NCBI GenBank assembly: GCA_965216875.1
Contig: OZ244207.1
Coordinates: 2,688,001 to 2,752,000, forward strand
Reading direction: 5' to 3'
DNA length: 64,000 bases
Source: Rubripirellula sp.
GTDB lineage: Bacteria > Planctomycetota > Planctomycetia > Pirellulales > Pirellulaceae
Shown here: piece after piece, positions 12,752 through 28,268 of the stretch
Layout of the letters: every line of letters begins with the position of its first letter
Position numbering within the stretch: the first letter of the stretch is position 1
The notes under the pieces: generated by a model
What the model saw: only the letters and a program-made list of their open reading frames with translations
Databases searched by the model: none
What the model was told of the DNA's origin: nothing
Made by a program: the position numbers and the translations under genes

Positions 12752-14380
12752 CTAGGCCTGCTGGTTTTCGTCGGTCCAACCGACGGTCAACGGCTTTTCT
12801 GCTGGTACTTCGCCGGCGGCACGTTTGCCGGCGGTGATTTGCTCAGTCACCGAGCGCAGTCGCTTGATAATCGGCGAATGCTGTGGGAACCGTTCTTGCT
12901 CGCGTCGCATCGCCTCTTTCATGGCCTCAGCTTCCTGATCCACAACTGGGACGCGAACGGTTCGCACGGCCGGTTCCGCGGAAACGGCGCTCGGTGTCTC
13001 TCGGGGTGGGGGTGGCGGCGGCGCAGGTGGCGGCGGTGGATCACTTGCCGGATGCCAATCGTCAAAAGGGCGGCGGCGGGGTTCCTCCTCAGGATCCAGA
13101 TCACGCCGCCGGCGTCGATTCCAATACGCTTTCAGGGCCGAGAGCCCGATCATTCCGAACGCACCACCAGGCACAGCAAGGTTCAAACCGTAGGCGGCCG
13201 AGATCCTCGTCGCTGCTTCCACCCAACTAAAGCGGCCGCTCGCTTTCTTGTCGACCGATTCGATCGAGGCCTCGGCCGTTGTGAGTTTGGTTGTGAATTG
13301 ATCGAGACGCGACGCGATCGATCCCTGCAGCGAGTCGAGATTCGTGTTGGCCGCTGCGATCGCGTTCTTGGTGGCCATCAGATCGTGAGTCGTCGCATAG
13401 CCACTAAGCGAGTCGACCGGTGCCAGGTTGGTGACGATCTTTTCGAGCTCATCGCGTTTGACGAATTGCTCGAGCTCGTCGCGCGTAACGTAGCCCGATA
13501 GATCAGGTTGCTTGGCCGGAATCGATGCAGCTGGTAGCGACGGCGTTGCCATTGGCGAGCGATCGCCCCGGATCGGGCCGGCCGACGGGATGCTCCCGCC
13601 GGCCGGATTCACAGTCCGTCCCCCCCTAGGAATTGGACTTTGAATGATCTGCCCTCTGTAGACCGGTTGAGCGTTAGAGCAGTTTCCGAAGCTGTCGCAT
13701 TGGCCGTAGACGCTTTGAGCTTCGCGAGCGTCTCGTCGCTGTGACAGTCGTGGAAAGACGCGACGGAGTGCGTTGCGGATCCGCGACATTGGCACCGCCA
13801 GACAACCACGTTCACGAACAAGTGAGCTGTGCATCAGGCCGGCAACCTTGCCCGCATGATAGACCGGTCCGCCTGACATTCCCTGCGGAATCGTCTCTGA
13901 GAACTCGAGATGCCCTTGGTTGTAGGACGAGTGGCGAAGCTGAGCGTTTAGCACTCGCATCTCTCTGCCGTACGGATACCCGATCAGATTCACTGCGGCA
14001 CCTGGTGTCAGATCTGAATCGAGCAAAGGCACGGCCGGCGGCGGGTTGGCTGCGAGTCCGGAGATCACCGCAACATCGTCGCCAGCATCGGGATTGCCGA
14101 CGTAGTGCAGCTGATCGATCGAGACGGGCGCGTGACTCGGAAAGTAGCAAGTGCACGAATCACGCTCACGCACGAAGTCGCGGAAGTTGTGCGCGTTGGT
14201 GAGCACATAGACGCGATTGCCGTCGACGGCCACAGCGACCCCGGATCCAAAACCCGAACCACTTGGTTCGGCGCATTGGACTCGCGCGACAGAGTCAGTG
14301 AAGTTTGGTGGCGACGCGCCGGCTTTTGCCGCGACAGCAAAACAAAGCACTAGCGCGCCGCCGAGGGAATGACGATGCAT
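12752..14380 (-). CDS. Exported trypsin-like serine protease with coiled coil and C-terminal hydrophobic anchor
   Basis: Signal-peptide-like N-terminus; catalytic triad motifs LTNAH, DDVAVI, GMSGGP; hydrophobic segment followed by RRRRR. Confidence 0.88.
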   Translation of the reverse strand: MHRHSLGGALVLCFAVAAKAGASPPNFTDSVARVQCAEPSGSGFGSGVAVAVDGNRVYVLTNAHNFRDFVRERDSCTCYFPSHAPVSIDQLHYVGNPDAGDDVAVISGLAANPPPAVPLLDSDLTPGAAVNLIGYPYGREMRVLNAQLRHSSYNQGHLEFSETIPQGMSGGPVYHAGKVAGLMHSSLVRERGCLAVPMSRIRNALRRVFPRLSQRRDAREAQSVYGQCDSFGNCSNAQPVYRGQIIQSPIPRGGRTVNPAGGSIPSAGPIRGDRSPMATPSLPAASIPAKQPDLSGYVTRDELEQFVKRDELEKIVTNLAPVDSLSGYATTHDLMATKNAIAAANTNLDSLQGSIASRLDQFTTKLTTAEASIESVDKKASGRFSWVEAATRISAAYGLNLAVPGGAFGMIGLSALKAYWNRRRRRDLDPEEEPRRRPFDDWHPASDPPPPPAPPPPPPRETPSAVSAEPAVRTVRVPVVDQEAEAMKEAMRREQERFPQHSPIIKRLRSVTEQITAGKRAAGEVPAEKPLTVGWTDENQQA

Positions 14381-14386
14381 AGCGAC

Positions 14387-14836
14387 CTACTTCTCGCTAA
14401 TGAACGAAACCGATCCCGCTTTCTTGGACGGTTTCATGCCGCGAATGGACTTGAGCCAGGCGTCAGCCTCAGCACGAGCCAGCTCGCTGACGCCTAGCGT
14501 TTGTTCCAGTTGATATCGCTGTCGCAGCTTATACAGGAGCTTCTGACGCTTGGCCTTGGGCATCTCCTGCAGAACGGCTCCGAGGATCTCCGCGGCCGGA
14601 GCTGCTGAGTTTGCGGAGCCTTCCCAAGACGTGCCCACATTCAGATTGCCGCAGATTGGCACGTTGATTTTGAAGCGGCCGAATGTCCCGAGCAGCGCCC
14701 CTTTGATCGGGTACTGCTTGCCCTCTTGAATGTCGACGCGAACGAACTGCTTCTCGCAGAACTTCATCGCTGCAGCGAAGAGCTGATTCTTGTAATCGTT
14801 TCGCTGCAGGTCACGACTTACTGCCTTCGTGGCCAT
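14387..14836 (-). CDS. Phage hypothetical protein, first gene of the late operon
   Basis: Start at MATKAVSRD after a GGGGGA RBS; the longer ORF start runs through the structured leader. Confidence 0.75.
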   Translation of the reverse strand: MATKAVSRDLQRNDYKNQLFAAAMKFCEKQFVRVDIQEGKQYPIKGALLGTFGRFKINVPICGNLNVGTSWEGSANSAAPAAEILGAVLQEMPKAKRQKLLYKLRQRYQLEQTLGVSELARAEADAWLKSIRGMKPSKKAGSVSFISEK

Positions 14837-14851
14837 GCCAATTCCCCCCAC

Positions 14852-14930
14852 GTGCGCCAACACGCTGCGAGTCCGCATCCGTGCGAACCAGGACCGTCGA
14901 TCCATCGACACTCGCAGCGCGTTGGCGCAC
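14852..14930 (-). promoter_or_regulatory. Structured late-leader RNA: 21-bp stem enclosing two GGA-loop hairpins (CsrA-type sites)
   Basis: Arms 14852-14872 and 14910-14930 (the single mismatch is G-U on the minus strand); internal GUCGA-UGGA-UCGAC and CGCA-CGGA-UGCG. Confidence 0.7.
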
Positions 14931-14983
14931 AAAAAAACCCAAGGTCTTATGTCGGCGCATATTGCGCCACAAATGGCCCTGGG
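14931..14983 (-). terminator. Leader terminator upstream of the late operon
   Basis: Long imperfect hairpin CCCAGGG...GGCGCA-AUA-UGCGCC...CCUUGGG followed by U7. Confidence 0.65.
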
Positions 14984-14994
14984 AATTGAACCGC

Positions 14995-15024
14995 ACCTTA
15001 CTGTACAGTCCGAAAACGCCGCAA
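14995..15024 (-). promoter_or_regulatory. Candidate sigma70-like late promoter
   Basis: TTGCGG-N18-TAAGGT on the minus strand, just upstream of the leader terminator. Confidence 0.4.
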
Positions 15025-15045
15025 TAGGAATCAGGGAGGGGGACT

Positions 15046-15576
15046 ATGTTGGTGGAATTGATCGCTTTGATCGATTCGATTCCCGATTGGGAATCAAAGT
15101 CGATCGAAGACCTTCACGAATTGATCACGCGCGAAGATCCGCGGCGACTTCCAAAGGACGTCGCCCATCTCGATCTCGCGAATCTCGCTGATCGAATCGA
15201 CGTCGAAGTTGCCGAGACGTTGGTGGTTAAGATCACTGAGGCCGGAATGCCGGCAATGGCTCAATCACTCGTCGCGCGCGGTCTGGACTTTGGAAGTCCC
15301 AAGATCCAAAAGAAACTCGATGAACTTGCCGGCGCCGGTGTGCTGCCTGGTTCGTTAGCCGAAAAGCTAAGGAGCTTTGGTGTCGATCGTCGCTCCCAAT
15401 GGCAACGGATCAGCGACAAGCCTGATCCGAGTGTCGACGATGTCGAGGCGGCCGTCTTCTCGCTTCGCATGAATCGTCAGCTCGAGAACGCCAAGGCAAT
15501 CTTTGCACAGCGGATGGGCGTTGGCGATGATCCCGCCACGGTTTGGTCAGGCGCCTGGAAGGATGCCGAGCACTGA
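15046..15576 (+). CDS. Phage hypothetical protein (first gene of the divergent cassette)
   Basis: 176 aa; GGAGG RBS; TGATG coupling to the next gene. Confidence 0.8.
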   Translation: MLVELIALIDSIPDWESKSIEDLHELITREDPRRLPKDVAHLDLANLADRIDVEVAETLVVKITEAGMPAMAQSLVARGLDFGSPKIQKKLDELAGAGVLPGSLAEKLRSFGVDRRSQWQRISDKPDPSVDDVEAAVFSLRMNRQLENAKAIFAQRMGVGDDPATVWSGAWKDAEH

Positions 15577-16685
15577 TGCCATACGCGCACTATTATGTCG
15601 ACGCATCGATTGGCAACGATGATCTAGCCACAGGTCGCGGTGAGTCACCGGGTGACCCATGGGCAACCTACGAACATGCGGTAACTGCGTTGGGAACTCT
15701 ATCCCAGACGACGCAAGTGAACATCAAGGGAACGCAGAGTATCACCGCAACGCAACCGATGCCGGGTGGTATGTCCTTTAGTCGCGTCTTCGCGATCCGA
15801 GGCTACACGAGCGTTGCAAATGACGGCGGACTGTTCACCTTCGACATGCAAGGAAACAGCAACCCGATTATCGACACCACCGCAACAGGTTTGCACATTG
15901 CTGACGGTGATTTCTTAAACACTGGAGCAGCCGCATACGCCGTCAGGTTCCAGCAGTACAGCGCGGCGGCAAACATCTACGTCGCTGGTGGCGATGGCGA
16001 TGGCATTCGGCTTGGTGGTTCTTCTAGTGCGATTTGCTGCGGTGTTGAAAACATGGGCGGCTACGGGATCTACGCTGACTCAAGCAACGGCAGGGTTATG
16101 GGCTGTTGGCTGAAGAACGGAGCGAGCAACAAGTTCTCCTACGCAATTGGACTTGGCGGATCTGGTAGCCTCGCAGTCGGCAACATGGTTGCGATCGACG
16201 GGAGCTCAGTTGGAATCTGGCAATACTCATTCCCCGGTTACGTTGAAGGAAACAGCATTATCGGGATGGGTACAGGCACGCCAACAGGCATCCTGTGGAA
16301 CAACAACGCACTCGGCGGGATTTTGGCAAGCAACGTTCTCGATGGATTGAACATTGGAATCAATTCAAGCATCTCTAACCGATACGGCATCCTCTACGGA
16401 CACAATGCATTCGGAAACAATACGACCGATGTCAGCGGAGCCGTTTCCGATGTCTTCACAGTCGAAAAATCCAACGAGTTCCTCGGCGCAACGGCGATCA
16501 TCGGCCGAACGGGATCCAATGCATTCCGCAGTCACGAAGGCTATTGGGGGCTGAACGACGTCGGCACCGTCCGCACAAATGGTTACGGGCCAGGGCGAAG
16601 CATTGGGGCTGTTCATCATCAAGGTAGCGGCGGCGGTGGTAGTCCTTCTGTTTCTGGTTACTCACTCGCGAGACTTGTGCAATGA
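15576..16685 (+). CDS. Right-handed beta-helix (pectin-lyase-like) protein; possible tailspike/virion appendage
   Basis: YYVDASIGND N-terminus; G/N/S-rich repeated GI-x motifs (DGIRL, YGIYA, VGIWQ, TGILW, IGINS). Confidence 0.75.
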   Translation: MPYAHYYVDASIGNDDLATGRGESPGDPWATYEHAVTALGTLSQTTQVNIKGTQSITATQPMPGGMSFSRVFAIRGYTSVANDGGLFTFDMQGNSNPIIDTTATGLHIADGDFLNTGAAAYAVRFQQYSAAANIYVAGGDGDGIRLGGSSSAICCGVENMGGYGIYADSSNGRVMGCWLKNGASNKFSYAIGLGGSGSLAVGNMVAIDGSSVGIWQYSFPGYVEGNSIIGMGTGTPTGILWNNNALGGILASNVLDGLNIGINSSISNRYGILYGHNAFGNNTTDVSGAVSDVFTVEKSNEFLGATAIIGRTGSNAFRSHEGYWGLNDVGTVRTNGYGPGRSIGAVHHQGSGGGGSPSVSGYSLARLVQ

Positions 16686-18238
16686 GCGAAGTAGTTCAAA
16701 ACAGCACGCGAAAGTTCAAAGTGTTCATGGTCGACGCTACGACCAAAGAACCAATAGACGATCTCCTGCCAAGCGACTTTACGGTCTATCTCAACAAACC
16801 AGGCCTCTCCGATGCAACGACCATTCCGTCGATCGCAAATCGCGGACATGGTTGGTATGAGATCACCCCGATTGCGGCCGATCGCGATACGATCGGCGAG
16901 TCAGGTTGGACGTTCACTGCAACCGGTGCCGATCCCTACCCGCGGCTCGAGAACGTGATCGCGATCGATAAAGATGATCCTCAGCGCGCTGGATTGGGCG
17001 CACTGCCGGAAACTGACGTCGCCTCGACCGTTCCTGCGATGCAGGCCGTCGCTGACGACTTCAAAGCGACGGGGTTTGCGGAACCAGGCGACGCGATGAG
17101 TTTGATCGACGATGCAGTCGGCCGCGACCAAATCGAAGATGGCGCGATCAATGAAGACAAGATCGCTCCAAATGCGATCGGAGCTTCGCAGGTCTCAAAC
17201 GGGGCGGTCGCGAAATTCGAAGGTGCGCTGCTTAACGATGGCGACGGCTCTGCGCTATTGGCCGCGATTGTTGCGGCGATCGATGCGGCCGACATTGATG
17301 CAGATTTGCTTCCCGGCTTGATCGTCAATGCGTTGTTTGATCGCGTGCTCGCAGGCAACCACGAAACGGCCGGCACGTTTGGGCGAATCGTCCAAGACGT
17401 GCTGCAGCATACCGGCACCGCGATCCCCACGTCGATCAATGATGTTCCGAGTTTGGTCGTCGCTGCAATGCAGGCTGTTGCGGACAGCTTCAAGGCGGAC
17501 ACTGCAGGCCTCTCGACGCACTCAGCTGCCGATGTGTGGGCTGTTGTCGAAAGGACGCTCACCGAGGGCACACGGGACGCTCAGATCGACGCTGTGAAGC
17601 TAAAGTCAGATCAGATGCAGTTCTCCGGTGGATTGCTCGAGGTGATCGTTCACGACTTCCTGACGGCTGCTCTGCAGCAATTCATCACCGTTGACACCGG
17701 TTTCAGCTCGGCCGGCACGCGAAGCGTCGCAGCAATCAGCCAAGGATCCGGAGGCGGTGGAGGTGGCGGCGGACCGGTCACGATCGACTATGGGGAGATT
17801 TCCGCATCGCTCGCACTCACCCTCTCACGCCTGGTTGTGAAAGCGTCAACGCTGTCGAGCGTCGATCATGTCGTCGCGCGTGGCACAACTTGGCGGATCC
17901 CGATAGAAGAGTTGCCCGCCGCTTGGACAAAGGTCGAGATCACAGCGCGATCCAATCCCGACGCGTCGCAATCGTCGAGCCTCTTTCACGTGCGACTCAG
18001 CAATCCGACGGACGCCGAAGATGGTCTGCAAGTTTTCGCAGGATCCGGCGACGTCAACGCGTCCGATGGCGAGATCGACACGCTTGTCGATCCGCCGGTC
18101 TGTAACATCGCCGCGGCACTCACAGCAGACGCCGAGTCGTGCGAGTACTGCTACGACGTGAAAGTCTGGGAGGGTGAAGCGATCACTCGAACTTCCTACG
18201 GATTGATCACGGTTGAGAAGGACGTTACCCGGACATAA
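16682..18238 (+). CDS. Virion-associated fibre/baseplate-like protein with Ig-like end domains
   Basis: Acidic, Ala-rich, Gly linker; C-terminal YCYDVKV...G.ITVEKDVTR resembles BppU-like phage domains; ATGA coupling. Confidence 0.65.
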   Translation: MSEVVQNSTRKFKVFMVDATTKEPIDDLLPSDFTVYLNKPGLSDATTIPSIANRGHGWYEITPIAADRDTIGESGWTFTATGADPYPRLENVIAIDKDDPQRAGLGALPETDVASTVPAMQAVADDFKATGFAEPGDAMSLIDDAVGRDQIEDGAINEDKIAPNAIGASQVSNGAVAKFEGALLNDGDGSALLAAIVAAIDAADIDADLLPGLIVNALFDRVLAGNHETAGTFGRIVQDVLQHTGTAIPTSINDVPSLVVAAMQAVADSFKADTAGLSTHSAADVWAVVERTLTEGTRDAQIDAVKLKSDQMQFSGGLLEVIVHDFLTAALQQFITVDTGFSSAGTRSVAAISQGSGGGGGGGGPVTIDYGEISASLALTLSRLVVKASTLSSVDHVVARGTTWRIPIEELPAAWTKVEITARSNPDASQSSSLFHVRLSNPTDAEDGLQVFAGSGDVNASDGEIDTLVDPPVCNIAAALTADAESCEYCYDVKVWEGEAITRTSYGLITVEKDVTRT

Positions 18239-19865: not shown

Positions 19866-20078
19866 CTACCTCGCTCCCATTTCGTCTGCGATGCGAATCG
19901 AATCACTCAGCAGCCGCTCGAGAGCAGCTGCGTCGTCGGTTGTGAGCGTGACCGCTCCTGTGATCGCACTAAGCGCGATCGCACGGGCCAAGTGATCGCG
20001 AAGCTGGCGAGCTTCCTCGAGCTGGCTGGTATGTCCGCGACTGACTCGCGAATAGGTTTGTTCAACAACTGCGTTCAT
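19866..20078 (-). CDS. Phage hypothetical protein
   Basis: 70 aa; ATGA overlap with the ParB gene. Confidence 0.6.
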   Translation of the reverse strand: MNAVVEQTYSRVSRGHTSQLEEARQLRDHLARAIALSAITGAVTLTTDDAAALERLLSDSIRIADEMGAR

Positions 20079-21841
20079 CTTGCCCTACGCTTTTTGGTGG
20101 TTCGCTTTTTCTTTGGCTTCAACACGTCGGGAACGGGAAGCGGTTTCTTTTCGGTGTGAGCTGCGACGATCGATTCGACCTTCGCACGCTTCGTTTTGGC
20201 GTGCGAAACGTCGACGCTCCATTGTTTTGCCAGGTCGTCGAGCTGATCGTTTGTGTGAAAACGAACGTATTCGGCGACGAGCGAAGATTCGCCTTCATTG
20301 GCGATCTCTGCCCAATGGCCGCTCAGTGAGCAATCGGCAAACTTGAGCATCGTGTCGATATCGCTATCGTTGCCGCTCCATTGAACGCTCGACGCAAGAT
20401 CAGAGGGCGGTATTGGCGTGACGCGTTCCGGCATTTCGCGAGCGATCGAGCCGCATGGCCAGCAGGTTGCCTGGTTCCAAACGAGAACACGCCAAAGCCG
20501 GTCGACCACGGTGTACCCGTGCGGGACGCTGGCCGTGTTGGAAAGTGCGCCGAGGTGATCGGATCCATTCACGAAGGTGTCGTCGCTTGCCGCGATCATT
20601 CCGCCGAGTAGATCGAATGACCGCGGGTTGCCCGTAATGCCGAGCGTTTCAAGTGCCGCCTCGATCCACACCTCGCGATCGCGAGTCTGGCAGAGCCACC
20701 AAGCAAGGCTCGTCAAAATGACGGGGTGCATTGCTGGAGTCTGGCGTGCCAGGCATGAGCGCCGAAAACGCCGCGCCCAGATCTCGCTTCGTTTTGCGAG
20801 TTGCTTTTTGGCCTCTGCCTTTTTGCGTCGCTCCTCGGCTGCGGCCTCTTTGCCGGTAAGAGGCTTGCCGGATTTCGATTGCGATGTGCTCGACGCGTAG
20901 GCACTCTTTTTGACCAAGTGCGTCTCGTTCAATGAGTCGAAGAGCTCAGTGTTTTGAGCGACTTCGATCATGGCTCCGTCTTTTCCAAGTGGTAGCTCGA
21001 CGATCTGCAGACTTGCTCGAGTCTTGTCGTCTAGCTCGAATTTCCTCTTGGCCGGTTTGAACGAGTAGCCGGGTCTATAGGTTGTCTTGCCGTCAACCGG
21101 ACGCACGTCATTGTCGAGGTCCAGACTAAAGAATCCGCTGGGATTGTCGATCATGTCCCGCAGTGCCCAGCTGTCCTCGGCGAGCGCCTCGGCCCACTCG
21201 TCGACGATCACGGTCGCCTCAGCAAACGGCACGACGTAGCGAGCTGCTCGAGCCGGCACGGTCCCATCGGCGACGAGCTTTCGCATCGACTCGGGAAGCT
21301 TCAAGAGTCGCAGCGTGTTTTTCACCCCGCTTTCGCTTTCGAGTCCAAGCATGCGACCGGCCTCTGCGCGATCGATTCCCTCATCGATCATTCGCTCGAG
21401 CAGCTCGGCCCGCTCGATTGGGTTAAGGCCCTTACGCTCTGCGTTGCCGAGAAGTACATCACGCAAGGCCTCAGCGTCGCTGCACTCAACCACCTCGCAG
21501 CGGGCCGGCCGTTTCAGTTGACGCAGTGCTGCAGAGCGACGGTGGCCGCTTAGCACCTGGTACTTTCGCTCGGCAAGTTTGCGAACGCGAATCACTTCGC
21601 GTTGACCAAACTCTTTGATCAATGCGACCAGATCACGAATCGCTTCACGCTTGACGCGTTCCTTTGGGTTGGCCGGATGATCGCTCAACTGTGCGATCGG
21701 GATCTCGATAACCGTGTCGCTTCGATCGATCGTTTCCGCGGAAACCTTTTGCCGCGGTGTCTTACTCGCAGCGGCCGACGCACGCTGCAGGGCAGATCGC
21801 TTTTTGCGTGCCCTTCGGTCTGCTGTCGCTGTTGCAGTCAC
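20075..21841 (-). CDS. ParB/RepB/Spo0J-family protein with long C-terminal extension
   Basis: YQVLSGHRR, NAERKGLNPIERA, HTH and LRLLKLPE motifs. Confidence 0.9.
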   Translation of the reverse strand: MTATATADRRARKKRSALQRASAAASKTPRQKVSAETIDRSDTVIEIPIAQLSDHPANPKERVKREAIRDLVALIKEFGQREVIRVRKLAERKYQVLSGHRRSAALRQLKRPARCEVVECSDAEALRDVLLGNAERKGLNPIERAELLERMIDEGIDRAEAGRMLGLESESGVKNTLRLLKLPESMRKLVADGTVPARAARYVVPFAEATVIVDEWAEALAEDSWALRDMIDNPSGFFSLDLDNDVRPVDGKTTYRPGYSFKPAKRKFELDDKTRASLQIVELPLGKDGAMIEVAQNTELFDSLNETHLVKKSAYASSTSQSKSGKPLTGKEAAAEERRKKAEAKKQLAKRSEIWARRFRRSCLARQTPAMHPVILTSLAWWLCQTRDREVWIEAALETLGITGNPRSFDLLGGMIAASDDTFVNGSDHLGALSNTASVPHGYTVVDRLWRVLVWNQATCWPCGSIAREMPERVTPIPPSDLASSVQWSGNDSDIDTMLKFADCSLSGHWAEIANEGESSLVAEYVRFHTNDQLDDLAKQWSVDVSHAKTKRAKVESIVAAHTEKKPLPVPDVLKPKKKRTTKKRRAR

Positions 21842-22056
21842 GGGAGTAGAAACCTCAGATCAACGGGTGTATTTGGCGGTGGCAATTGCTCGAACAGTTC
21901 ACGTTGGAACTGAGAGCTGTCGTTGTCTTTGTGCACTGCGATGCGGTGCACGAACACCTCGCATTCTGTGCCTTCAGCCGTGACGCCTTTCCATCGCCGG
22001 CAGTGCACGCCGTCGATGATTGCGATGTCGGCCGTCGATTCAATCTGAACCTGCAT
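21838..22056 (-). CDS. Phage hypothetical protein
   Basis: 72 aa; GAGGTG RBS; GTGA overlap with the ParB gene. Confidence 0.65.
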   Translation of the reverse strand: MQVQIESTADIAIIDGVHCRRWKGVTAEGTECEVFVHRIAVHKDNDSSQFQRELFEQLPPPNTPVDLRFLLP

Positions 22057-23155
22057 GAATCACCTCTTGGTTGGCAGAAAGCAGGCGATCGCCAGCCTCA
22101 CTGATCATTCGATCGAGCTCGGTGCGTGCCTGCGGTAGATACTTCAAGACACGACGCAATTCGCGCCGGCGCAACGTGTGAACGAAGACACCGACGCGGC
22201 TGCGTCTGACTTCACGATCGGGCATCTTTGCCGCGTAAGTCGCCACGGCCATCACCGTGATCAAGTGCGCCTCCGTGGAACCAGTCACGACCGGTTCAGG
22301 TGCACTCAACTGACGACGAAACCAAAGCACCATGGCCTTTGAGGAGCCGAGGTGTTCGTTCGTCAGCGCGGCAAACGCCCCCCTTATCAGCTCGCCTGCC
22401 GGCAGTGGATCGACCGAGCGAGTCAGCGACTCGGGGATCTCCGGCTGTGCGAGCAAGTAGTCGGGCAGTCCATCTCCCAAGAAAACCGGACCCTTCCCGG
22501 CTCCGGATACGGTGTCGGCCTCGGCTCCGGAGCTGCCGTGCGAACGTTCGTCCGCGGGGCGGACGCGCTCCGGTACCGGTACCGAGTCAGTTGTTAGAGA
22601 GTTAGATATATAAGAGGGAATCCGCGGGGCATACGAATCCGTCCGCCCCGCGGACGGTTCTGTGTGCGGGGCATACAGTGAGCTGTCTTCCCCGCGGACA
22701 GACTCGTCCGTGCGGCGGACGGTTCGCCTCCTTTTTCCCTTCGATCGATTGCCCAAGTAGGCCTGCTCGATCATCTGCTTTGTGAGTGCCGTCGGCTCTT
22801 CGCCAGCAACCCACCTAACGAGGCCTTCAACATCGATCACCAGCTGACCGAACTGGCCACGAATCGCACCGGCTTCGTGAGCCATTTTGAGGACCTTGTA
22901 ACAGCTCGATCGACCACACCAAAGTTGCTTGGCCCATTCGTCGACAGACCACTCAACAGGATCCAGGCCGTCTGGATAGGAGCGGGACGTTGAAAGCCTT
23001 GCAACGGCTCGGATCATCTCCTGCAGCTGCAGAGAGAGCTTGTTGTTTGCCACCGCGGCAATTTCATGGCTCACCTGCATCACATAAGTGATCAGCTTGT
23101 CGCGGTTCTGTTCAATCGCCGCGACTTGGTTGATTAGATCGAGCTGCCTTGTCAT
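22040..23155 (-). CDS. Putative replication initiator (N-terminal winged HTH, iteron-bearing linker)
   Basis: WSVDEWAKQLWCGRSSCYKVLK HTH; low-complexity linker containing tandem 17-bp repeats; AAGGAGG RBS. Confidence 0.7.
   Translation of the reverse strand: MTRQLDLINQVAAIEQNRDKLITYVMQVSHEIAAVANNKLSLQLQEMIRAVARLSTSRSYPDGLDPVEWSVDEWAKQLWCGRSSCYKVLKMAHEAGAIRGQFGQLVIDVEGLVRWVAGEEPTALTKQMIEQAYLGNRSKGKRRRTVRRTDESVRGEDSSLYAPHTEPSAGRTDSYAPRIPSYISNSLTTDSVPVPERVRPADERSHGSSGAEADTVSGAGKGPVFLGDGLPDYLLAQPEIPESLTRSVDPLPAGELIRGAFAALTNEHLGSSKAMVLWFRRQLSAPEPVVTGSTEAHLITVMAVATYAAKMPDREVRRSRVGVFVHTLRRRELRRVLKYLPQARTELDRMISEAGDRLLSANQEVIHAGSD
22549..22721. repeat. Iteron array and AT-rich segment: putative phage replication origin
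   Basis: 17-bp units of consensus CGTCCG-N5-CGGACG at 22549, 22619, 22640, 22661, 22684 and 22705; AT-rich 22591-22613. Confidence 0.7.
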
Positions 23156-23194
23156 CGTTGCCTCCTTGCGCTACCCATCGCGAATGCCAGCTGT

Positions 23195-23473
23195 TCATTC
23201 ATCGCAGCTGATCTCCTCTTCGATTTCGTTGGCAAATCGAACGAGCTCGCAGTAGGTCTCGATCCTTATGTATTTGCCCTCCTTCATCGGCCAGCGCACT
23301 TCGAGCCGTTGGCGCATGAAGCCGCAAATCGCCTTCACCAGACGGCGTTTGTACTCTTCATGCTCACGACGATAGCGACGTCGCTGCCCGAACCACTCAA
23401 CGAAAGCAGCAACGATCGTGAACAACAATGCTGCGATCCAGATTGACCGCTCGATCCATTCGAGGTCGTGCAT
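23195..23473 (-). CDS. Small membrane-anchored phage protein
   Basis: 92 aa; one TM helix then a basic patch; GGAGG RBS. Confidence 0.65.
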   Translation of the reverse strand: MHDLEWIERSIWIAALLFTIVAAFVEWFGQRRRYRREHEEYKRRLVKAICGFMRQRLEVRWPMKEGKYIRIETYCELVRFANEIEEEISCDE

Positions 23474-23475
23474 CG

Positions 23476-24060
23476 TTACACCTCCACCAACGGGACGCGA
23501 ACCTTCTTTGAGTAGTCAGGGGTGAAGTAGTGGACCGCGCACTTCTCATTGAAGGCGTCGACGTGCTTCATCAGCTTGTCGACTTCGGTCTTTGATGGCC
23601 AATCGACGTCCTCGTAGGTGTCGTCGAGCATGCACTCAATCGCTTGATCGAGGTCGAGTCCCTTCACGTGGTGTTCGCAGGTGTGGACGAACACAGGCTG
23701 CTCGATCGTTTCACCATCCTTGATGGCCCAGTAGATCGCATCGGCCACGTCATCAAGATCGTCGTAGTACCCATCACGACCGCCCGGTGCCAATTCGCTG
23801 TAGAGCATGCCGGTTGGTTCTTCGACCTCTTCGGCTTCCTCAAGCCACTGCTCGGATTGAGCTCGTCTCTGCTCGCTCCACTGTCGCTGCAGGCATTCTT
23901 GGCAGAGGGTGTGACCGGGCTTCTTTTCCTTTCCGCACTCAACACAACTAAGGCAGCATCGCCCAGCGACGTCTTTATCTCTGTGGACGCGCAAGCAACT
24001 GGAACATGCCCAGCCGTGCACGGGCGAGCCGCATGGGAGTCGTAACTGCATTGGCGTCAT
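23476..24060 (-). CDS. Phage hypothetical protein with Cys-rich (Zn-binding) N-terminus
   Basis: CSSC, CC, CVEC and CQEC motifs; acidic C-terminus. Confidence 0.75.
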   Translation of the reverse strand: MTPMQLRLPCGSPVHGWACSSCLRVHRDKDVAGRCCLSCVECGKEKKPGHTLCQECLQRQWSEQRRAQSEQWLEEAEEVEEPTGMLYSELAPGGRDGYYDDLDDVADAIYWAIKDGETIEQPVFVHTCEHHVKGLDLDQAIECMLDDTYEDVDWPSKTEVDKLMKHVDAFNEKCAVHYFTPDYSKKVRVPLVEV

Positions 24061-24063
24061 TGG

Positions 24064-24498
24064 TTAGACCTCATCTTCGAGGGTGATATCGCTCGGGTGG
24101 ACATTCAATTTCTGACCAGCAAAACGCGGAGCGTCGTCGTCAAAGAGGACGTCGAAATTTGCACTCGCGTTGTGGCCGACAATGATGCCGTGACTTCGAC
24201 CAACGATGACGCGTTGGCCACACTTGAGCGTTGGCATTCCGCGGTAGGCTGCGGTTCGCTGAAAGCCCTCGGGCGTGTGACAGCGTCCGACGCATCGAAC
24301 GCGTAGGTCTGTGAAGCGATAATCCCAACCAGCGTCGAGCAGATCGTTCAAGAACTCAGCTTTGGCTTTGCCCGCGGTTCGCGCGTTGATCGTCTTTCGA
24401 AACTCGGGTCGATCAGCGACCCAAACGTGATAGGCAAAACACTGGTTGAACGGTGTCGTTTTGCACGCTTCGACGATTCTCGACATTGCATCAGCCAT
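24064..24498 (-). CDS. Phage hypothetical protein
   Basis: 144 aa; C-terminal GIIVGHNASANFDVLF...NVHP segment. Confidence 0.75.
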   Translation of the reverse strand: MADAMSRIVEACKTTPFNQCFAYHVWVADRPEFRKTINARTAGKAKAEFLNDLLDAGWDYRFTDLRVRCVGRCHTPEGFQRTAAYRGMPTLKCGQRVIVGRSHGIIVGHNASANFDVLFDDDAPRFAGQKLNVHPSDITLEDEV

Positions 24499-24835
24499 TC
24501 CAACACCCCGATCTCGCGTCGAACGATCTAAGCTGCGACTTCAACTTCTTGAGACGCTGACGATTTGCCCACGTGTTACCAAGCGTCTTGACGCATGCTG
24601 TCACCAGCTCAAGTGACTGCTCGAGCGATCGCTGCTTTGCGTCCGCAGCCTGTTGAACAACTGAGGGACGATGAAAGGAAACGATGCAGCCTCGGGGCAC
24701 CTTCGCGACGAAAGTGTTTTTGTTTTCGTCCGCGTAGATCGTCGCGATGTAGTCTCGCGAGCTGTCCCACACGATGTATGCACCGCGCGGGTACTCGGCG
24801 ACGACTCCGGTTTCGGTCACGATGTAAGCGGCCAT
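24491..24835 (-). CDS. Phage hypothetical protein
   Basis: 114 aa; packed in the early operon. Confidence 0.7.
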   Translation of the reverse strand: MAAYIVTETGVVAEYPRGAYIVWDSSRDYIATIYADENKNTFVAKVPRGCIVSFHRPSVVQQAADAKQRSLEQSLELVTACVKTLGNTWANRQRLKKLKSQLRSFDARSGCWNG

Positions 24836-24839
24836 TCAC

Positions 24840-26591
24840 TCACCCAAACTCAAAGAAGGTCTGTGTTTGCCCAGAGGGGGCGGTTTGAAATTGCGCGGGC
24901 ACTTGCACAAGCGGAGCCGCCTCGATCAGTGACGGCTCGGCTCGCATGTAATGGGCGTCGTTGACGTCGCGCGCAGCATGACCGAGAACCCAGCGGCCGA
25001 GGTCCTCACCCATCCCCGCACGCGTCCAACGAATGTTGGCGGTCGATCGAAGATGTTGTCGCCTAACATGCTCGAGGCCTGCTTGTGAGACGATCTTGGA
25101 CCACTCGTCGCGAAACCGATGCCCTTTGCTGTCCGTCCATTGAAAGAGGTTGCCACCGCGGCGACGAAGCAGCTCGTCGACGTGGATCCGGACGCATGGC
25201 GGAAGCGGCACGATCAAACGCGATCGCTTTTTGCGTTTCGTCTTGGTTGGCTGATAGATGAGCCAACCGTGATCGCTCGATCGGACACTGCGAGCCACTG
25301 GCGATTCAGGCTGCAGCCGAAAGTTGTCGGCCGACAACGTCGCGCAGTCGTTTACCCGTGGACCAAGCACCGAGCCGATCACCAGGAAGGTGCGCCACTG
25401 CAGTTGGGGCACCTCGCTTGGCCAGGCTGCCACCTCGCACGCGTCGTAGATGCGGCCGATCTGCTCATCGGTGACGTCCGCCGGCCCGCCGGCATCTTCG
25501 TCGCCGAGCTGCTCGACCAGGTCGCTTAGAGGCGACATGGCCGGCACGCGTGGAAGCAAGCAGAGTGCGGACGGGTTGCCCGATTCACGGGGACCAACCT
25601 TTCGCAGAATTGCTCTGATCTTCTTCCACTGCTTGCCGGCCGAGTCGATCGACAATTGCGCCCCATTGTCCGCCATTAACCAGACGCCGAACTCATTCAG
25701 GATCGAGTCCGAAATCTGAGAAACTGGGAGGGTTGCGGCGGTTTGCTGGGGCAAAGTTTGCGCGCGAGTACTTCTAGTACTCGCGCGCTGCTCAAGGAAT
25801 CGTTCCCAGTGATCAAGCGCTGTGAAGTACTGCGTTGTCGTAGATCTCGCCCTTGCGCGAAAGATGAGAGGGTGCAAGTGTTCGAGGAAACAATCACGTA
25901 GCGTGATGTCCATCGGATCGGACTCGTCGCCCGGGTCATACATTCGAAGTGCGGCGGTCACGTTGGGATCCTCCCAGCTCGAGGCAATCGCGTCGGATGC
26001 TGGGACCATCCAACTAAACAGAAACAACAGTGCTGCCGCGCGGGTGAGAGCTTGCAGACGCTTGATTGCGTCGCGTCGATCAGATTGCCTGTTGGTTTCG
26101 CTGATAGCGACCGAGACGCGAGATTCGCTGACTTTGAGTTGCTTGCCGACGTCTTTCATCGAGTGGCCTTCGCACCGCAATAGGATTGCCCGAACTGCCA
26201 ACGATTCGGTTGCACACTTCCGCTTCAGTTCTTCCCATTCGATTGCGCCAAGATCATCGTGGCTATCTTCGATCTGAACGCAGTGCCTACCGTTCTCGTC
26301 AACCATTGAGTCGAGAGACCCAGCGAAGTCATCGACCCGTCTCGGCTTGCCGTGTCGCGTATCGTGTCCGTGCTTTCTCCAGAGATCCTTCGCTCGCAGT
26401 GGCAATACGCGCCAGATGTACGTTTTCCATTGAGCTTTGTCGGGGTCGAATCGCAATGCCAACCGCCAAACCTCCATCCTTAGTTCTTGCTCGATGTCGT
26501 GGATATCCAGGGCACCGATCTTCCGCGCTCGCGAGGCCAAGGTCAGCACGCACTTTTCAGCCTGCGCCAACAACTCGTCGACGTCGTTCAT
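24840..26591 (-). CDS. Sigma70/ECF-like domain fused in frame to a tyrosine recombinase
   Basis: Sigma region 2 (DIEQE...RFDP...WKTYI...DLWRK) and region 4 HTH (SMKDVGKQLKVSESRVS); recombinase GPRVND, KTK, QHLR, LGH and HY motifs. Confidence 0.85.
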   Translation of the reverse strand: MNDVDELLAQAEKCVLTLASRARKIGALDIHDIEQELRMEVWRLALRFDPDKAQWKTYIWRVLPLRAKDLWRKHGHDTRHGKPRRVDDFAGSLDSMVDENGRHCVQIEDSHDDLGAIEWEELKRKCATESLAVRAILLRCEGHSMKDVGKQLKVSESRVSVAISETNRQSDRRDAIKRLQALTRAAALLFLFSWMVPASDAIASSWEDPNVTAALRMYDPGDESDPMDITLRDCFLEHLHPLIFRARARSTTTQYFTALDHWERFLEQRASTRSTRAQTLPQQTAATLPVSQISDSILNEFGVWLMADNGAQLSIDSAGKQWKKIRAILRKVGPRESGNPSALCLLPRVPAMSPLSDLVEQLGDEDAGGPADVTDEQIGRIYDACEVAAWPSEVPQLQWRTFLVIGSVLGPRVNDCATLSADNFRLQPESPVARSVRSSDHGWLIYQPTKTKRKKRSRLIVPLPPCVRIHVDELLRRRGGNLFQWTDSKGHRFRDEWSKIVSQAGLEHVRRQHLRSTANIRWTRAGMGEDLGRWVLGHAARDVNDAHYMRAEPSLIEAAPLVQVPAQFQTAPSGQTQTFFEFG

Positions 26592-26866
26592 CGCTTGGCA
26601 CCTCGCAGAACGGCCGAAACGATCGCCTTTGCCTCGGCCGGGTTTCCGTGGAAACGATCGCCAAGCGCTTCGACGATCTCCGCTGCGACTTTGTCGACGT
26701 GGTTACTCGCCGCGTTCACGCCGATCGGCTGATTTCCACGCGATCGCAATACCAGCACGTTCTTTGGGGCAAATACCCCAATCCGTGCTCGGTCGAAAAA
26801 GAGCACTCTTGTATCGTGTCCGATATGAACGAAATGGCCGGCCTGACCCGTAAGGCGTAACATCAT
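26588..26866 (-). CDS. Divergent phage-encoded CsrA/RsmA-family protein with C-terminal helical extension
   Basis: MLRLTGQAGHFVHIGHDTRVLFFDRARIGVFAPKNVLVLR aligns with the CsrA ML.LTR..GE...IG...RIG..AP..V.V.R pattern. Confidence 0.7.
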   Translation of the reverse strand: MMLRLTGQAGHFVHIGHDTRVLFFDRARIGVFAPKNVLVLRSRGNQPIGVNAASNHVDKVAAEIVEALGDRFHGNPAEAKAIVSAVLRGAKR

Positions 26867-26940
26867 CTCTCCTTGATGGGCCGCCGGCCGCTCACTCCTG
26901 CGGGGCACTAGCAGGAGCGAGCAAGCCGGAGGCTACGCGG

Positions 26941-27192
26941 TTAGAAATACTGCGTGACACCTTCCATTGATGGCCGGCGTCGGTTCCGTTTGGTTGCTGG
27001 AGCAGGTGTTCTCCGCTCCATAAACCGTTCGATCTCTTTTCGATCGATCCTGTACCGGGCGACTTTCTTTCCGCGCCCAACGTTGCTCGCTTTCAGAGAG
27101 CGATCCATGATCAATGCGCGAACGTGGTCAACGCTCATGCCCATGATCAAAGCTGCTTCCTTCGGCGTGACATACCTCTTTGATTCCAACAT
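26941..27192 (-). CDS. Excisionase-family (HTH_17/MerR-like) DNA-binding protein
   Basis: YVTPKEAALIMGMSVDHVRALI...LKA...YRIDRKEIERF; adjacent to att. Confidence 0.85.
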   Translation of the reverse strand: MLESKRYVTPKEAALIMGMSVDHVRALIMDRSLKASNVGRGKKVARYRIDRKEIERFMERRTPAPATKRNRRRPSMEGVTQYF

Positions 27193-27207
27193 CACCTGTC
27201 TCCCAAT

Positions 27208-27251
27208 AAAAAAGACCGACAGCCTGCGATGCGACGCGCAAGCTGCCGGTC
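27208..27251 (-). terminator. Leader terminator directly upstream of the first early gene
   Basis: 15-bp stem GACCGGCAGCUUGCG/CGCAGGCUGUCGGUC (two G-U pairs) followed by U6, ending about 15 nt before the ATG. Confidence 0.8.
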
Positions 27252-27301
27252 TCTCGGTCGAGGTGACCAATGCTGGAATTGTGTGTCGCATTTCGGCGTG
27301 A

Positions 27302-27329
27302 ATCCTAGGCCTGAAAAGGACTCACGCAA
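27302..27329 (-). promoter_or_regulatory. Candidate sigma70-like early promoter
   Basis: TTGCGT-N16-TAGGAT on the minus strand. Confidence 0.4.
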
Positions 27330-27606
27330 CAAGCTTTTCAACGATCAAAAACGGATTGTGCTGACACAGCACTAGCACGACATTGAAACAGCATTCGCAC
27401 GACAGAAAAACTAATTTGCCAGAACCCAGATTGGGTCAAGCCGGATGAACTAGCAACGATTGGAGCCGGTGAACTCAACTGGAGTTGGTCACACTCCTGG
27501 TCACAAAACCGACATTGAATCGTTAACAACGACGCGCAGTACGAATCGCAAAAACAGCTGGCGCTTTGAAACGACATCGCCAGCGCATCGCCACGACAAA
27601 GCAGCT

Positions 27607-27652
27607 GGATTGTGGTTCCGAAAGTCGGGGGTTCGAATCCCCTCAGCCACCC
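27607..27652 (+). pseudogene. 3' half of tRNA-His(GUG) = prophage attR core
   Basis: GGA-TTGTGGT-TCC anticodon arm, T-arm GGGGG-TTCGAAT-CCCCT, acceptor 3' strand CAGCCAC-C; no GTGGCTG 5' strand or D-arm upstream. Confidence 0.88.
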
Positions 27653-27668
27653 TTGGATTTACCTAATT

Positions 27669-27699
27669 CCGCCCATTCACCCGAGTGGGCGGTTTTTTT
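27669..27699 (+). terminator. Host tRNA terminator left behind at attR
   Basis: CCGCCCATTC-ACCC-GAGTGGGCGG followed by T7. Confidence 0.85.
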
Positions 27700-27746
27700 A
27701 TGCGCCGCGCTGATCTTCTGAAAACGCGGCGCGGCTGTTCACTCGG

Positions 27747-28268
27747 TTAGCCATCGACGCTGTACTCGATTTGGGTGAACCCACCCAGCTCCGTGGCTGA
27801 CGTCTGGGTGAGGTAAAGATGCTTCGGCAAGACATCGACCAGCGGGCAACCTTCGAACAGGAGGATCGGCATCACCGCGACGCTCAAATGAGTCAGACGA
27901 CCAGCCTGAATCAACGCGTTCACCAACTTGCCACCGCCGACAACCCAGAGTTTCTGCAGGCCCATCTGCTCAGCCGCCTCAATCGCCTTGACCAAGTCTT
28001 GCTCTGGCTGCAAGTCGCATCCTTCCATCAACGGAACTTCTTGACGGCTGCAAACCCAAGTGGGCTTGTTTTCGTAAGGCCATTGTCCGTAGTCAAACAC
28101 AAAATCGAAGGTCTTTCGCCCCATCAGCAATCCGTCGACGCTGTTGAAAAACGACTGGTAGCTTGCGGTGTCGGGTCTGATTCGAATCTTCTCCAACCAA
28201 TCAACGCCGTCATCCGAGTCCGCGATGAATCCATCCAAGCTCGAGGCAACGTAGTAAACGATCTTCAT
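27747..28268 (-). CDS. Dihydrofolate reductase / RibD C-terminal family protein
   Basis: YVASSLDGFIA, LMGRKTF and WVVGGG motifs. Confidence 0.9.
   Translation of the reverse strand: MKIVYYVASSLDGFIADSDDGVDWLEKIRIRPDTASYQSFFNSVDGLLMGRKTFDFVFDYGQWPYENKPTWVCSRQEVPLMEGCDLQPEQDLVKAIEAAEQMGLQKLWVVGGGKLVNALIQAGRLTHLSVAVMPILLFEGCPLVDVLPKHLYLTQTSATELGGFTQIEYSVDG

What the first reader, a model, noticed from the sequence alone, without database searches (positions are those of the whole stretch)
24840..26591. Sigma factor fused to a tyrosine recombinase, with a hidden GGA-hairpin-gated internal start
Seen: one 583-aa ORF has sigma regions 2 and 4 (aa ~1-180), a hydrophobic linker (AAALLFLFSWMV), then core-binding and catalytic recombinase domains. 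R, K, LGH and Y are present; HxxR reads QHLR. An in-frame GTG at 25961 (Val211) has GGAGG 8 nt upstream, and that RBS lies in a perfect UGGGA-GGA-UCCCA hairpin (25964-25976). Inference: two products, a sigma-recombinase fusion and a stand-alone 373-aa recombinase whose translation may be CsrA-controlled; the CsrA-like gene is coupled directly upstream. I know of no described sigma-recombinase fusion.
Basis: partly seen in the sequence, partly recalled or inferred. Interest (0 to 1): 0.82.

Follow-up and report, generated by a model that had tools for sequence, protein, structure and literature searches.

The report
Prophage sigma gene merged with recombinase
In one planctomycete prophage, a sigma-factor gene runs without a stop into a neighbouring DNA recombinase gene that keeps its own start. 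The merge looks like a one-off, but the recombinase belongs to an apparently undescribed phage family with a sliding-clamp-type tail and, often, a membrane-type leader.

Summary
The 583-aa frame is real; contigs show no difference across the junction. It lies in the early operon of a 38.4-kb prophage whose att-linked integrase is a different gene. It has three parts: a phage sigma (aa 1-184), a hydrophobic leader (185-210) and a tyrosine recombinase from Val211.

Val211 is probably a true start: it aligns with the starts of short homologues, and such a GGAGG precedes only 71 of 61,791 internal host ATG/GTG codons.

The sigma-recombinase join was found only here: 0 of 154 relatives carry sigma, and the 3 closest sigmas are separate genes behind tyrosine recombinases. 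What recurs is the leader: all 13 extended proteins among the 20 closest have a hydrophobic segment, some behind CsrA, and elsewhere a similar leader is fused to sigma.

The CsrA gate is not supported: the triloop has P<0.02 in context, the loop is not ANGGAN, and it is not conserved. A longer stem buries the RBS instead.

The parts
26040..26591 (-). Phage-type minimal sigma factor (regions 2 and 4), aa 1-184, with no stop after its last helix
   Evidence: Pfam/NCBIfam/PHROG; look-alike clusters are 174-207-aa sigma-like proteins, several viral; 32-34% identity to three prophage sigmas that end 6-22 residues after the column of L182
25962..26039 (-). Leader, aa 185-210: 12-residue hydrophobic segment (26004-26039) plus acidic spacer; same design as the signal-like leaders of relatives
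   Evidence: Mean hydropathy 2.23 over 12 aa, charge +3 before and -3 after; 13 of 13 extended proteins among the 20 closest have such a segment
25962..26014 (-). Predicted RNA stem that pairs the first three SD bases and outcompetes the triloop
   Evidence: stability no better than shuffles (z 0.11)
25959..25974 (-). Internal start: GGAGG, 8 nt, GTG (Val211)
   Evidence: aligns with homologue starts; 71 of 61,791 internal host ATG/GTG have this SD
24840..25961 (-). 373-aa accessory tyrosine recombinase: core-binding plus catalytic domain, no arm-binding domain; R412, K450, Q512, R515, H538, Y548
   Evidence: Model pLDDT 83.9; fold matches; residue conservation
24846..24863 (-). C-terminal QTFFEF, a degenerate copy of the family's Q-x-F-L-F / QLxLF clamp-binding-like tail
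26588..26863 (-). Divergent CsrA-like gene whose stop overlaps the sigma ATG; holds one parS-like site (26642-26655)
26941..27291 (-). HTH_17 excisionase-like gene, first ORF of the early operon (start may be the ATG near 27192)
27607..27655 (+). attR: 49-bp perfect copy of the tRNA-His 3' part; attL lies at G000:C1:2677278-2677326, outside the window, beside a 401-aa integrase
20075..21841 (-). ParB-like gene of the same operon; holds a parS-like palindrome at 21732

Best explanation
Three neighbouring cassettes of a planctomycete temperate-phage early operon (sigma, a small hydrophobic-leader gene, an accessory tyrosine recombinase) have merged into one frame in this lineage, because the sigma's stop was lost or replaced where the leader begins. 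Shown: the open frame, the domain order and the unfused state of relatives. Inferred (strong): the working recombinase is made from GTG 25961 as a 373-aa soluble protein, and the sigma can only be made as the long form. Inferred (moderate): the RBS is buried in a longer stem that ribosomes coming from the sigma frame open, so translational coupling rather than CsrA sets the level of the short form. Inferred (weaker): the long form is a sigma with a membrane-type anchor and a passenger tail, predicted N-in. The recombinase is not the att integrase. It is most likely an active cut-and-rejoin enzyme brought to replicating DNA by the host beta clamp; my single best guess (about 35%) is resolution of multimers or replication intermediates of the excised phage circle, which also carries ParB and parS-like sites.
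For: Frame verified. Sigma homology ends at about aa 182-184, where the leader starts. The closest sigmas are separate genes: two lie directly behind a family recombinase, one about 500 bp behind another tyrosine recombinase. G333 has csrA, a hydrophobic small gene, a recombinase, another hydrophobic small gene and sigma as separate ORFs, the first four with SD-like sites. Other merges in the same operon type: CsrA-leader-recombinase (P0060 E 5.6e-9, P0005 E 9e-4), leader-recombinase (L002, L061, L062, L060) and leader-sigma (G314). A separate integrase sits at attL. Across 155 proteins: R 144, K 153, R 154, H 145, Y 154. Clamp-like tail, loose pattern 80 of 155 versus 27 of 3,545 host ORFs; canonical pattern 39 of 155 versus 4 of 3,545. 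Tail versus host DnaN scored 0.39, best control 0.02; contacts agree in at least 55%, partner pLDDT at least 44; that mark was reached by 116 of 157 solved and 2 of 215 mismatched pairs, weak at this level and possibly from likeness to solved clamp-peptide complexes. Precedent: planctomycete ECF sigmas gain C-terminal extensions by capturing in-frame downstream genes (PMC7671368, passages).
Against: The leader stays in frame with the recombinase in 15 of 22 rows of the close clade and carries shared motifs (DPRD..P, EPV); that is more than neutral accidents should give and hints at selection for the long form. Several long members lack an obvious Met-x-L-R start. This copy's tail is non-canonical and Q512 replaces the K/R seen in 18 of 19 close relatives, so it may be weakened. 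The long stem is not unusually stable (z 0.11). The hydrophobic segment is short (12 aa; 1.62 over 19 aa). No recombination site was identified. No expression data.
Confidence: 0.6

Rival explanations
1. The hydrophobic leader is a selected regulatory module. It tethers whatever it is joined to (recombinase, CsrA, sigma) to the membrane as an inactive pro-form, and release comes by proteolysis or by switching to the internal start. The sigma fusion here would be one working instance.
For: 13 of 13 extended close relatives are hydrophobic, against 5-16% of random frames at a similar threshold. Leaders recur in distant branches (P0046, P0060, P0031, P0120, P0126; 5 of 28 extended distant proteins) and share motifs. 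A leader-sigma fusion exists in G314. P0046 has the same junction peptide as P0001.
Against: Charge bias is mostly neutral or N-in, which would put the recombinase outside the cytoplasm. Similarity of P0001's leader to other leaders is not significant by shuffling, except P0060 at 0.01 among 10 tests. The G314 motif match is weak (E 0.37).
Confidence: 0.2
2. The full-length protein is a soluble functional unit: the recombinase half and its tail hold the sigma on the sliding clamp or on phage DNA and couple late transcription to replication, as in T4 and Mu.
For: Clamp-like tail on the same chain as a sigma. MuC uses two clamp motifs for late transcription, and T4 gp33/gp55 need the T4 clamp (PMC12867686, passages). 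Sigma and recombinase are neighbours in related prophages.
Against: Join seen once; a hydrophobic segment lies between the halves; the tail of this copy is degenerate; the full-length model gives no confident sigma half or interface (pTM 0.41).
Confidence: 0.08
3. One reading: the internal start is gated by CsrA binding to the GGA triloop.
For: The letters are present, and only 19 of 1,261 host GGAGG-start sites have such a 5-bp GGA-loop stem. The host has 7 CsrA genes. csrA lies near the recombinase in 7 of 17 related loci (two of these were in the profile's training set).
Against: Triloop P<=0.02 in contexts of 50 nt or more. The loop is 3 nt and the sequence GAGGAU, whereas CsrA prefers ANGGAN hexaloops (PMC7652899). 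The L002 internal start has no GGA. The phage CsrA-like protein is divergent (below Pfam cut-off).
Confidence: 0.1
4. The recombinase half is a repressor or DNA-binding regulator with a recombinase fold, like MrpR or SroF of SPbeta-type phages.
For: It sits among regulators in the early operon, has no att role, and SroF and MrpR appear among the fold matches (Z 13.4 and 9.2). The first His is not conserved.
Against: MrpR lost the Arg and His residues (PMC10516654, passages), whereas this family keeps R, K, R, H and Y in 144-154 of 155.
Confidence: 0.1

Closest known systems
Planctomycete ECF sigma factors with captured C-terminal extensions (PMC7671368)
   Same: A minimal sigma2-sigma4 protein reads in frame into a downstream gene in a planctomycete, giving a lineage-specific extension.
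   Different: Here the sigma is phage-type inside a prophage, and the captured gene is a tyrosine recombinase that keeps its own start. 'Recombinase' and 'integrase' do not occur in that paper's main text; supplements not seen.
Simple tyrosine recombinases: XerA/XerH, Cre, Brujita Int, lambda Int 75-356
   Same: Core-binding plus catalytic fold, no arm-binding domain, R-K-x-R-H-Y active site. Cre as a second, circle-resolving recombinase of a temperate phage is recalled, not from a call.
   Different: First His mostly K/R; clamp-like C-terminal tail; optional hydrophobic leader; 10-19% identity in structural alignments; no XerC/XerD model matched.
Clamp-binding proteins of mobile elements: IS and Tn3 transposases, MuC, T4 gp33/gp55
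   Same: Short terminal QLxLF-like motif in a disordered tail.
   Different: None is a tyrosine recombinase. Searches for 'tyrosine recombinase' + 'clamp-binding motif' gave 0 papers, and 'beta clamp' + integrase + phage + 'clamp binding' gave 2 unrelated ones. Transposase papers were seen as search listings only.
MrpR and SroF (SPbeta-type repressors with a recombinase fold)
   Same: Non-integrating tyrosine-recombinase fold in a temperate phage.
   Different: MrpR lost catalytic residues and activity; this family keeps them.
Membrane-tethered pro-sigma factors (pro-sigmaK, pro-sigmaE; recalled) and ECF groups with transmembrane extensions (ECF263, PMC7826278 passage)
   Same: A sigma joined to a hydrophobic segment.
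   Different: Single short segment, followed by a recombinase; no protease or cleavage shown.

Membership tests
Sigma-70 family, minimal sigma2+sigma4 | Region 2 and region 4 domains | tested here: met
   Pfam r2 above cut-off, r4 weak; TIGR02937 aa 5-165; three full-length prophage relatives
Sigma-70 family, minimal sigma2+sigma4 | Binds core RNA polymerase and directs transcription | not testable with these tools
   Needs in vitro transcription
Tyrosine recombinase superfamily | Core-binding plus catalytic fold | tested here: met
Tyrosine recombinase superfamily | Catalytic R, K, R, H/W and Y | tested here: met
   R412, K450, R515, H538, Y548, conserved in 144-154 of 155
Tyrosine recombinase superfamily | His of HxxR | tested here: not met
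   Gln here; K or R in 18 of 19 close relatives
Tyrosine recombinase superfamily | Cognate site and strand exchange | tested here: inconclusive
   A scan for 11-13-bp arms with 6-8-bp spacers gave many candidates, none singled out
Prophage integrase (att-linked) | Gene beside an att site, serving integration | tested here: not met
   A different 401-aa integrase abuts attL; this gene is inside the early operon
Beta-clamp-binding proteins | Canonical Q-aliphatic-x-[LM]-[FL] motif | tested here: inconclusive
   Met by 39 of 155 family members (host 4 of 3,545) but not by this copy (QTFFEF)
Beta-clamp-binding proteins | Binding to DnaN | tested here: inconclusive
   Predicted complex 0.39 versus best control 0.02, graded weak
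CsrA-gated ribosome-binding site | GGA in an ANGGAN hexaloop of the favoured structure | tested here: not met
   Triloop, GAGGAU, P<=0.02 in context
Conserved sigma-recombinase fusion family | Same join in independent genomes | tested here: not met
   1 of 155 proteins; 0 of 3 full-length sigma relatives. Word-seeded searches are insensitive, so rare copies may be missed
Membrane-anchored or exported pro-protein | Hydrophobic segment that inserts in the membrane or is cleaved | tested here: inconclusive
   Hydropathy and charge only; no signal-peptide or topology predictor was available
MrpR/SroF-type dead-recombinase repressors | Loss of catalytic Arg/His | tested here: not met

The most novel reading that the evidence does not exclude
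Planctomycete temperate phages use a hydrophobic leader as a reusable in-frame module that makes membrane-tethered long forms of CsrA, sigma and a clamp-binding tyrosine recombinase, alongside soluble short forms from internal starts. In this prophage one polyprotein holds the sigma at the membrane until release, while the nested recombinase acts at the replication clamp.
Probability: 0.2. Interest if true: 0.8.

Novelty: new variant of a known kind. Interest (0 to 1): 0.48.

Why it matters
The sigma-recombinase join itself is probably a lineage-specific merge of a kind already described for planctomycete sigmas. The family under it matters more: 118 clusters at E<=1e-30 of catalytically intact, non-integrating phage tyrosine recombinases, about half with a clamp-type tail. 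If the tail binds DnaN, it would link tyrosine recombination directly to the replication clamp, which my literature searches did not find described. The recurring in-frame hydrophobic leader gives a simple test of whether phages use nested membrane-tethered isoforms as a control device.

Tried and rejected
Assembly error or frameshift: rejected (X1 and X4 may be the genome's source sample, X5 is another study but may be the same strain). Role as the prophage's integrase: rejected. Topoisomerase IB or protelomerase, suggested by the K-x-x-R motif: lower fold scores (Z 5-9 versus 12-16 for recombinases); not excluded, not favoured. PDB sequence search gave only a weak ECF hit. GenBank phages: no match. 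Extra viral-contig scans gave no new loci. Order-level genome search added no close-clade locus. No sigma-70 consensus promoter in 24000-28000. No RNA holder listed. GC3 does not mark the junction (0.66, 0.63, 0.68). Leader versus core substitutions between two near-identical copies (8 synonymous/6 non-synonymous versus 28/9) are too few to call. The shared first four residues of P0001 and P0046 could mean the sigma inserted into a leader gene, but may be chance. Prophage depth is only 6-11% above the right flank, no evidence of induction. Literature: 10 searches found no sigma-tyrosine-recombinase fusion or this family; the library lacks most subscription papers and no supplements were read. 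The tree is the quick one.

Full report
Observation. The window holds one stop-free frame at 24840-26591 on the minus strand, 583 aa. Residues 5-165 match sigma-70 models: Pfam region 2 at E 1.6e-5, region 4 weakly, TIGR02937 at E 4.5e-8. The part from Val211 folds with pLDDT 83.9 and matches Xer, Brujita, Tn1549 and lambda integrases (Z 14-16). The GTG at 25961, the GGAGG 8 nt before it and the hairpin letters are as described. Contigs of two runs of one sample match 22000-27636 letter for letter, and a 282-bp contig from another study spans the junction unchanged. The frame is not an assembly error.

Setting. The gene lies in a 38.4-kb prophage bounded by a perfect 49-bp repeat of tRNA-His (attR at window 27607-27655; attL at G000:C1:2677278-2677326). 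Terminase, portal, S49 protease and capsid genes are present. A separate 401-aa integrase abuts attL. This recombinase is therefore a second one, in the early operon after an excisionase-like gene and a CsrA-like gene, and before a probable initiator and ParB. Named relatives of the recombinase are mostly planctomycete.

The internal start. Short homologues of 371-386 aa begin with M-x(0-3)-[AE]-L-[RK]-[IV], which aligns with V211-T-A-A-L-R-M-Y. Of 61,791 internal in-frame ATG/GTG codons in long host ORFs, 71 have GGAGG 5-9 nt upstream. The aligned start carrying this signal is unlikely to be chance. It remains an inference until initiation is measured.

The hairpin. The triloop is rare by letters (19 of 1,261 host SD-like sites) and forms when only 30 nt of upstream RNA are folded. 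With 50, 80, 120 or 200 nt its pairs have P<=0.02. A longer stem, 26014-25962, pairs the first three SD bases instead; the region folds no better than shuffles (z 0.11). CsrA prefers GGA in ANGGAN hexaloops (PMC7652899, passages read); this site reads GAGGAU. The internal start of L002 has no GGA. I rate CsrA gating at about 10%. csrA does lie near the recombinase in 7 of 17 distinct related loci (duplicates and the window's own locus dropped, two loci in the training set), and the host has 7 CsrA genes.

Is the join conserved? No second case was found. Of the 155 family proteins in hand (of 961 at E<=0.001), only this one has a sigma domain. Two word-seeded searches with the N-terminal 200 residues found only itself. 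A search of 400 related genomes with the sigma matched 18; three matched over the full length. In G337 and G314 that sigma lies directly behind a recombinase of this family, as a separate gene; in G333 it lies about 500 bp behind another tyrosine recombinase that ends in QLGLF. G314 and G337 were picked by the sigma, so their linkage to the family recombinase is independent of how they were found. Homology to these sigmas runs to about aa 182-184 and they stop 6-22 residues later. That is where the hydrophobic segment begins here.

What does recur. Among the 20 closest proteins, 13 have an N-terminal extension and all 13 contain a hydrophobic 12-mer; among more distant ones, 5 of 28 extended proteins do. 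About 5% of random 35-aa and 16% of 100-aa frames reach a similar hydropathy. Longer leaders share DPRD..P and EPV motifs. Some begin with CsrA (P0060 E 5.6e-9; P0005 E 9e-4; P0012 by eye only). All 4 complete non-self loci of the close clade have the leader in frame; two of them are near-identical copies in one genome. In L002 csrA overlaps the leader start as a separate gene. In G333 the hydrophobic pieces are small separate genes on either side of the recombinase. In G314 a leader is fused to the front of the sigma, with a plausible internal start. So these operons shuffle and merge the same few cassettes, and sigma-leader-recombinase is one arrangement among several. Planctomycete ECF sigmas are reported to gain extensions by capturing in-frame downstream genes (PMC7671368, abstract and passages). 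The persistence of the leader in 15 of 22 rows of the clade (quick tree) is the main fact that a purely neutral reading does not explain.

The recombinase family. R, K, R, H and Y are kept in 144, 153, 154, 145 and 154 of 155 proteins, unlike the dead repressor MrpR (PMC10516654, passages). The first His is K or R in 18 of 19 close relatives and Gln here, so this copy may be weakened. A Q-x(1-2)-[LMF]-[FL] tail ends 80 of 155 proteins and 19 of the 20 closest, against 27 of 3,545 long host ORFs; I wrote that pattern after seeing the family. The published canonical motif (PMC11139829, passages) fits 39 of 155 against 4 of 3,545, but not this copy. The last 34 residues scored 0.39 against host DnaN, best control 0.02; the tool grades this weak (116 of 157 solved and 2 of 215 mismatched pairs reach the mark; contacts agree in at least 55%; partner pLDDT at least 44; likeness to solved clamp-peptide complexes may help). 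The prophage also has ParB and a 14-bp palindrome whose 5 perfect copies in the genome all lie inside it (8 of 10 with one mismatch); calling it parS-like rests on recalled consensus.

How it most likely works. Ribosomes coupled from the CsrA-like gene make the 583-aa form and, in passing, open the stem over the internal RBS; initiation at GTG gives the soluble 373-aa recombinase (inferred). The sigma exists only as the long form; charges of +3 before and -3 after the hydrophobic segment suggest sigma inside and tail outside if it inserts at all (inferred, weak). The recombinase most likely acts on replicating phage DNA through the clamp, with multimer resolution as my best single guess (about 35%); no site was identified. 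I put 0.6 on the lineage-specific merge with a retained start, 0.2 on a selected tethering module, 0.1 on CsrA gating, 0.1 on a repressor role and 0.08 on a clamp-tethered sigma like the Mu and T4 late systems (PMC12867686, passages); these are not all exclusive.

Novelty. Ten literature searches found no sigma-tyrosine-recombinase fusion and no description of this family; the library is incomplete and no supplements were read. PMC7826278 was read as passages and does not mention recombinases in its main text. Earlier scan notes report other sigma-recombinase joins in other genomes; I did not test them. Verdict: a real but apparently single join, a new variant of a known kind, sitting on an uncharacterised recombinase family that is the better lead. 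Interest 0.48.

Noticed in passing
window 1150, 7617, 12972, 21732, 26642 and G000:C1 at about 2680274, 2680829, 2684647: 14-bp palindrome GTTTCCGCGGAAAC: all 5 perfect copies in the 8.26-Mb genome, and 8 of 10 with one mismatch, lie in the 38-kb prophage, which encodes ParB; probably phage parS sites.
   Followed up: partly
L091:6887-7885 (G314): 332-aa ORF in which a hydrophobic leader is fused to the front of the related phage sigma, directly behind a family recombinase; resembles a pro-sigma layout.
   Followed up: partly
P0060, P0005, P0012: CsrA-hydrophobic segment-recombinase fusions in at least two branches of the family.
   Followed up: partly
N-termini of family proteins P0001-P0155: An [LIF][RK][LIV][FYHVWI] motif lies in the first 25 residues of 62 of 155 (host 2%) and sometimes reads QLRLF, like the C-terminal tail; it may be a second clamp motif, as in MuC.
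   Followed up: partly
window 22619-22722: Long imperfect inverted and direct repeats inside the probable replication initiator gene (22040-23155), a candidate origin; the protein starts MTRQLDL, a clamp-like motif.
   Followed up: no
window 27490-27520 and G000:C1 about 2677360-2677385: Paired TGGTCACA repeats just inside both att sites, probably arm-type sites of the 401-aa integrase.
   Followed up: no
G000:C1:591000-632638: Large tRNA arrays, about 48 genes in three clusters on one strand.
   Followed up: no
window 12752-18238: Plus-strand block inside the prophage, opposite to the structural genes: a 542-aa secreted protease-like protein and 380- and 518-aa proteins, not annotated here.
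   Followed up: no
L061 and L062 (G077): Two near-identical copies of a leader-recombinase gene in one genome, with palindromic-repeat-like peptide insertions of different length inside the core-binding domain.
   Followed up: no
window 25758-25790: Perfect 11-bp inverted repeat with a 7-bp spacer inside the recombinase gene, in the disordered loop of the core-binding domain.
   Followed up: no
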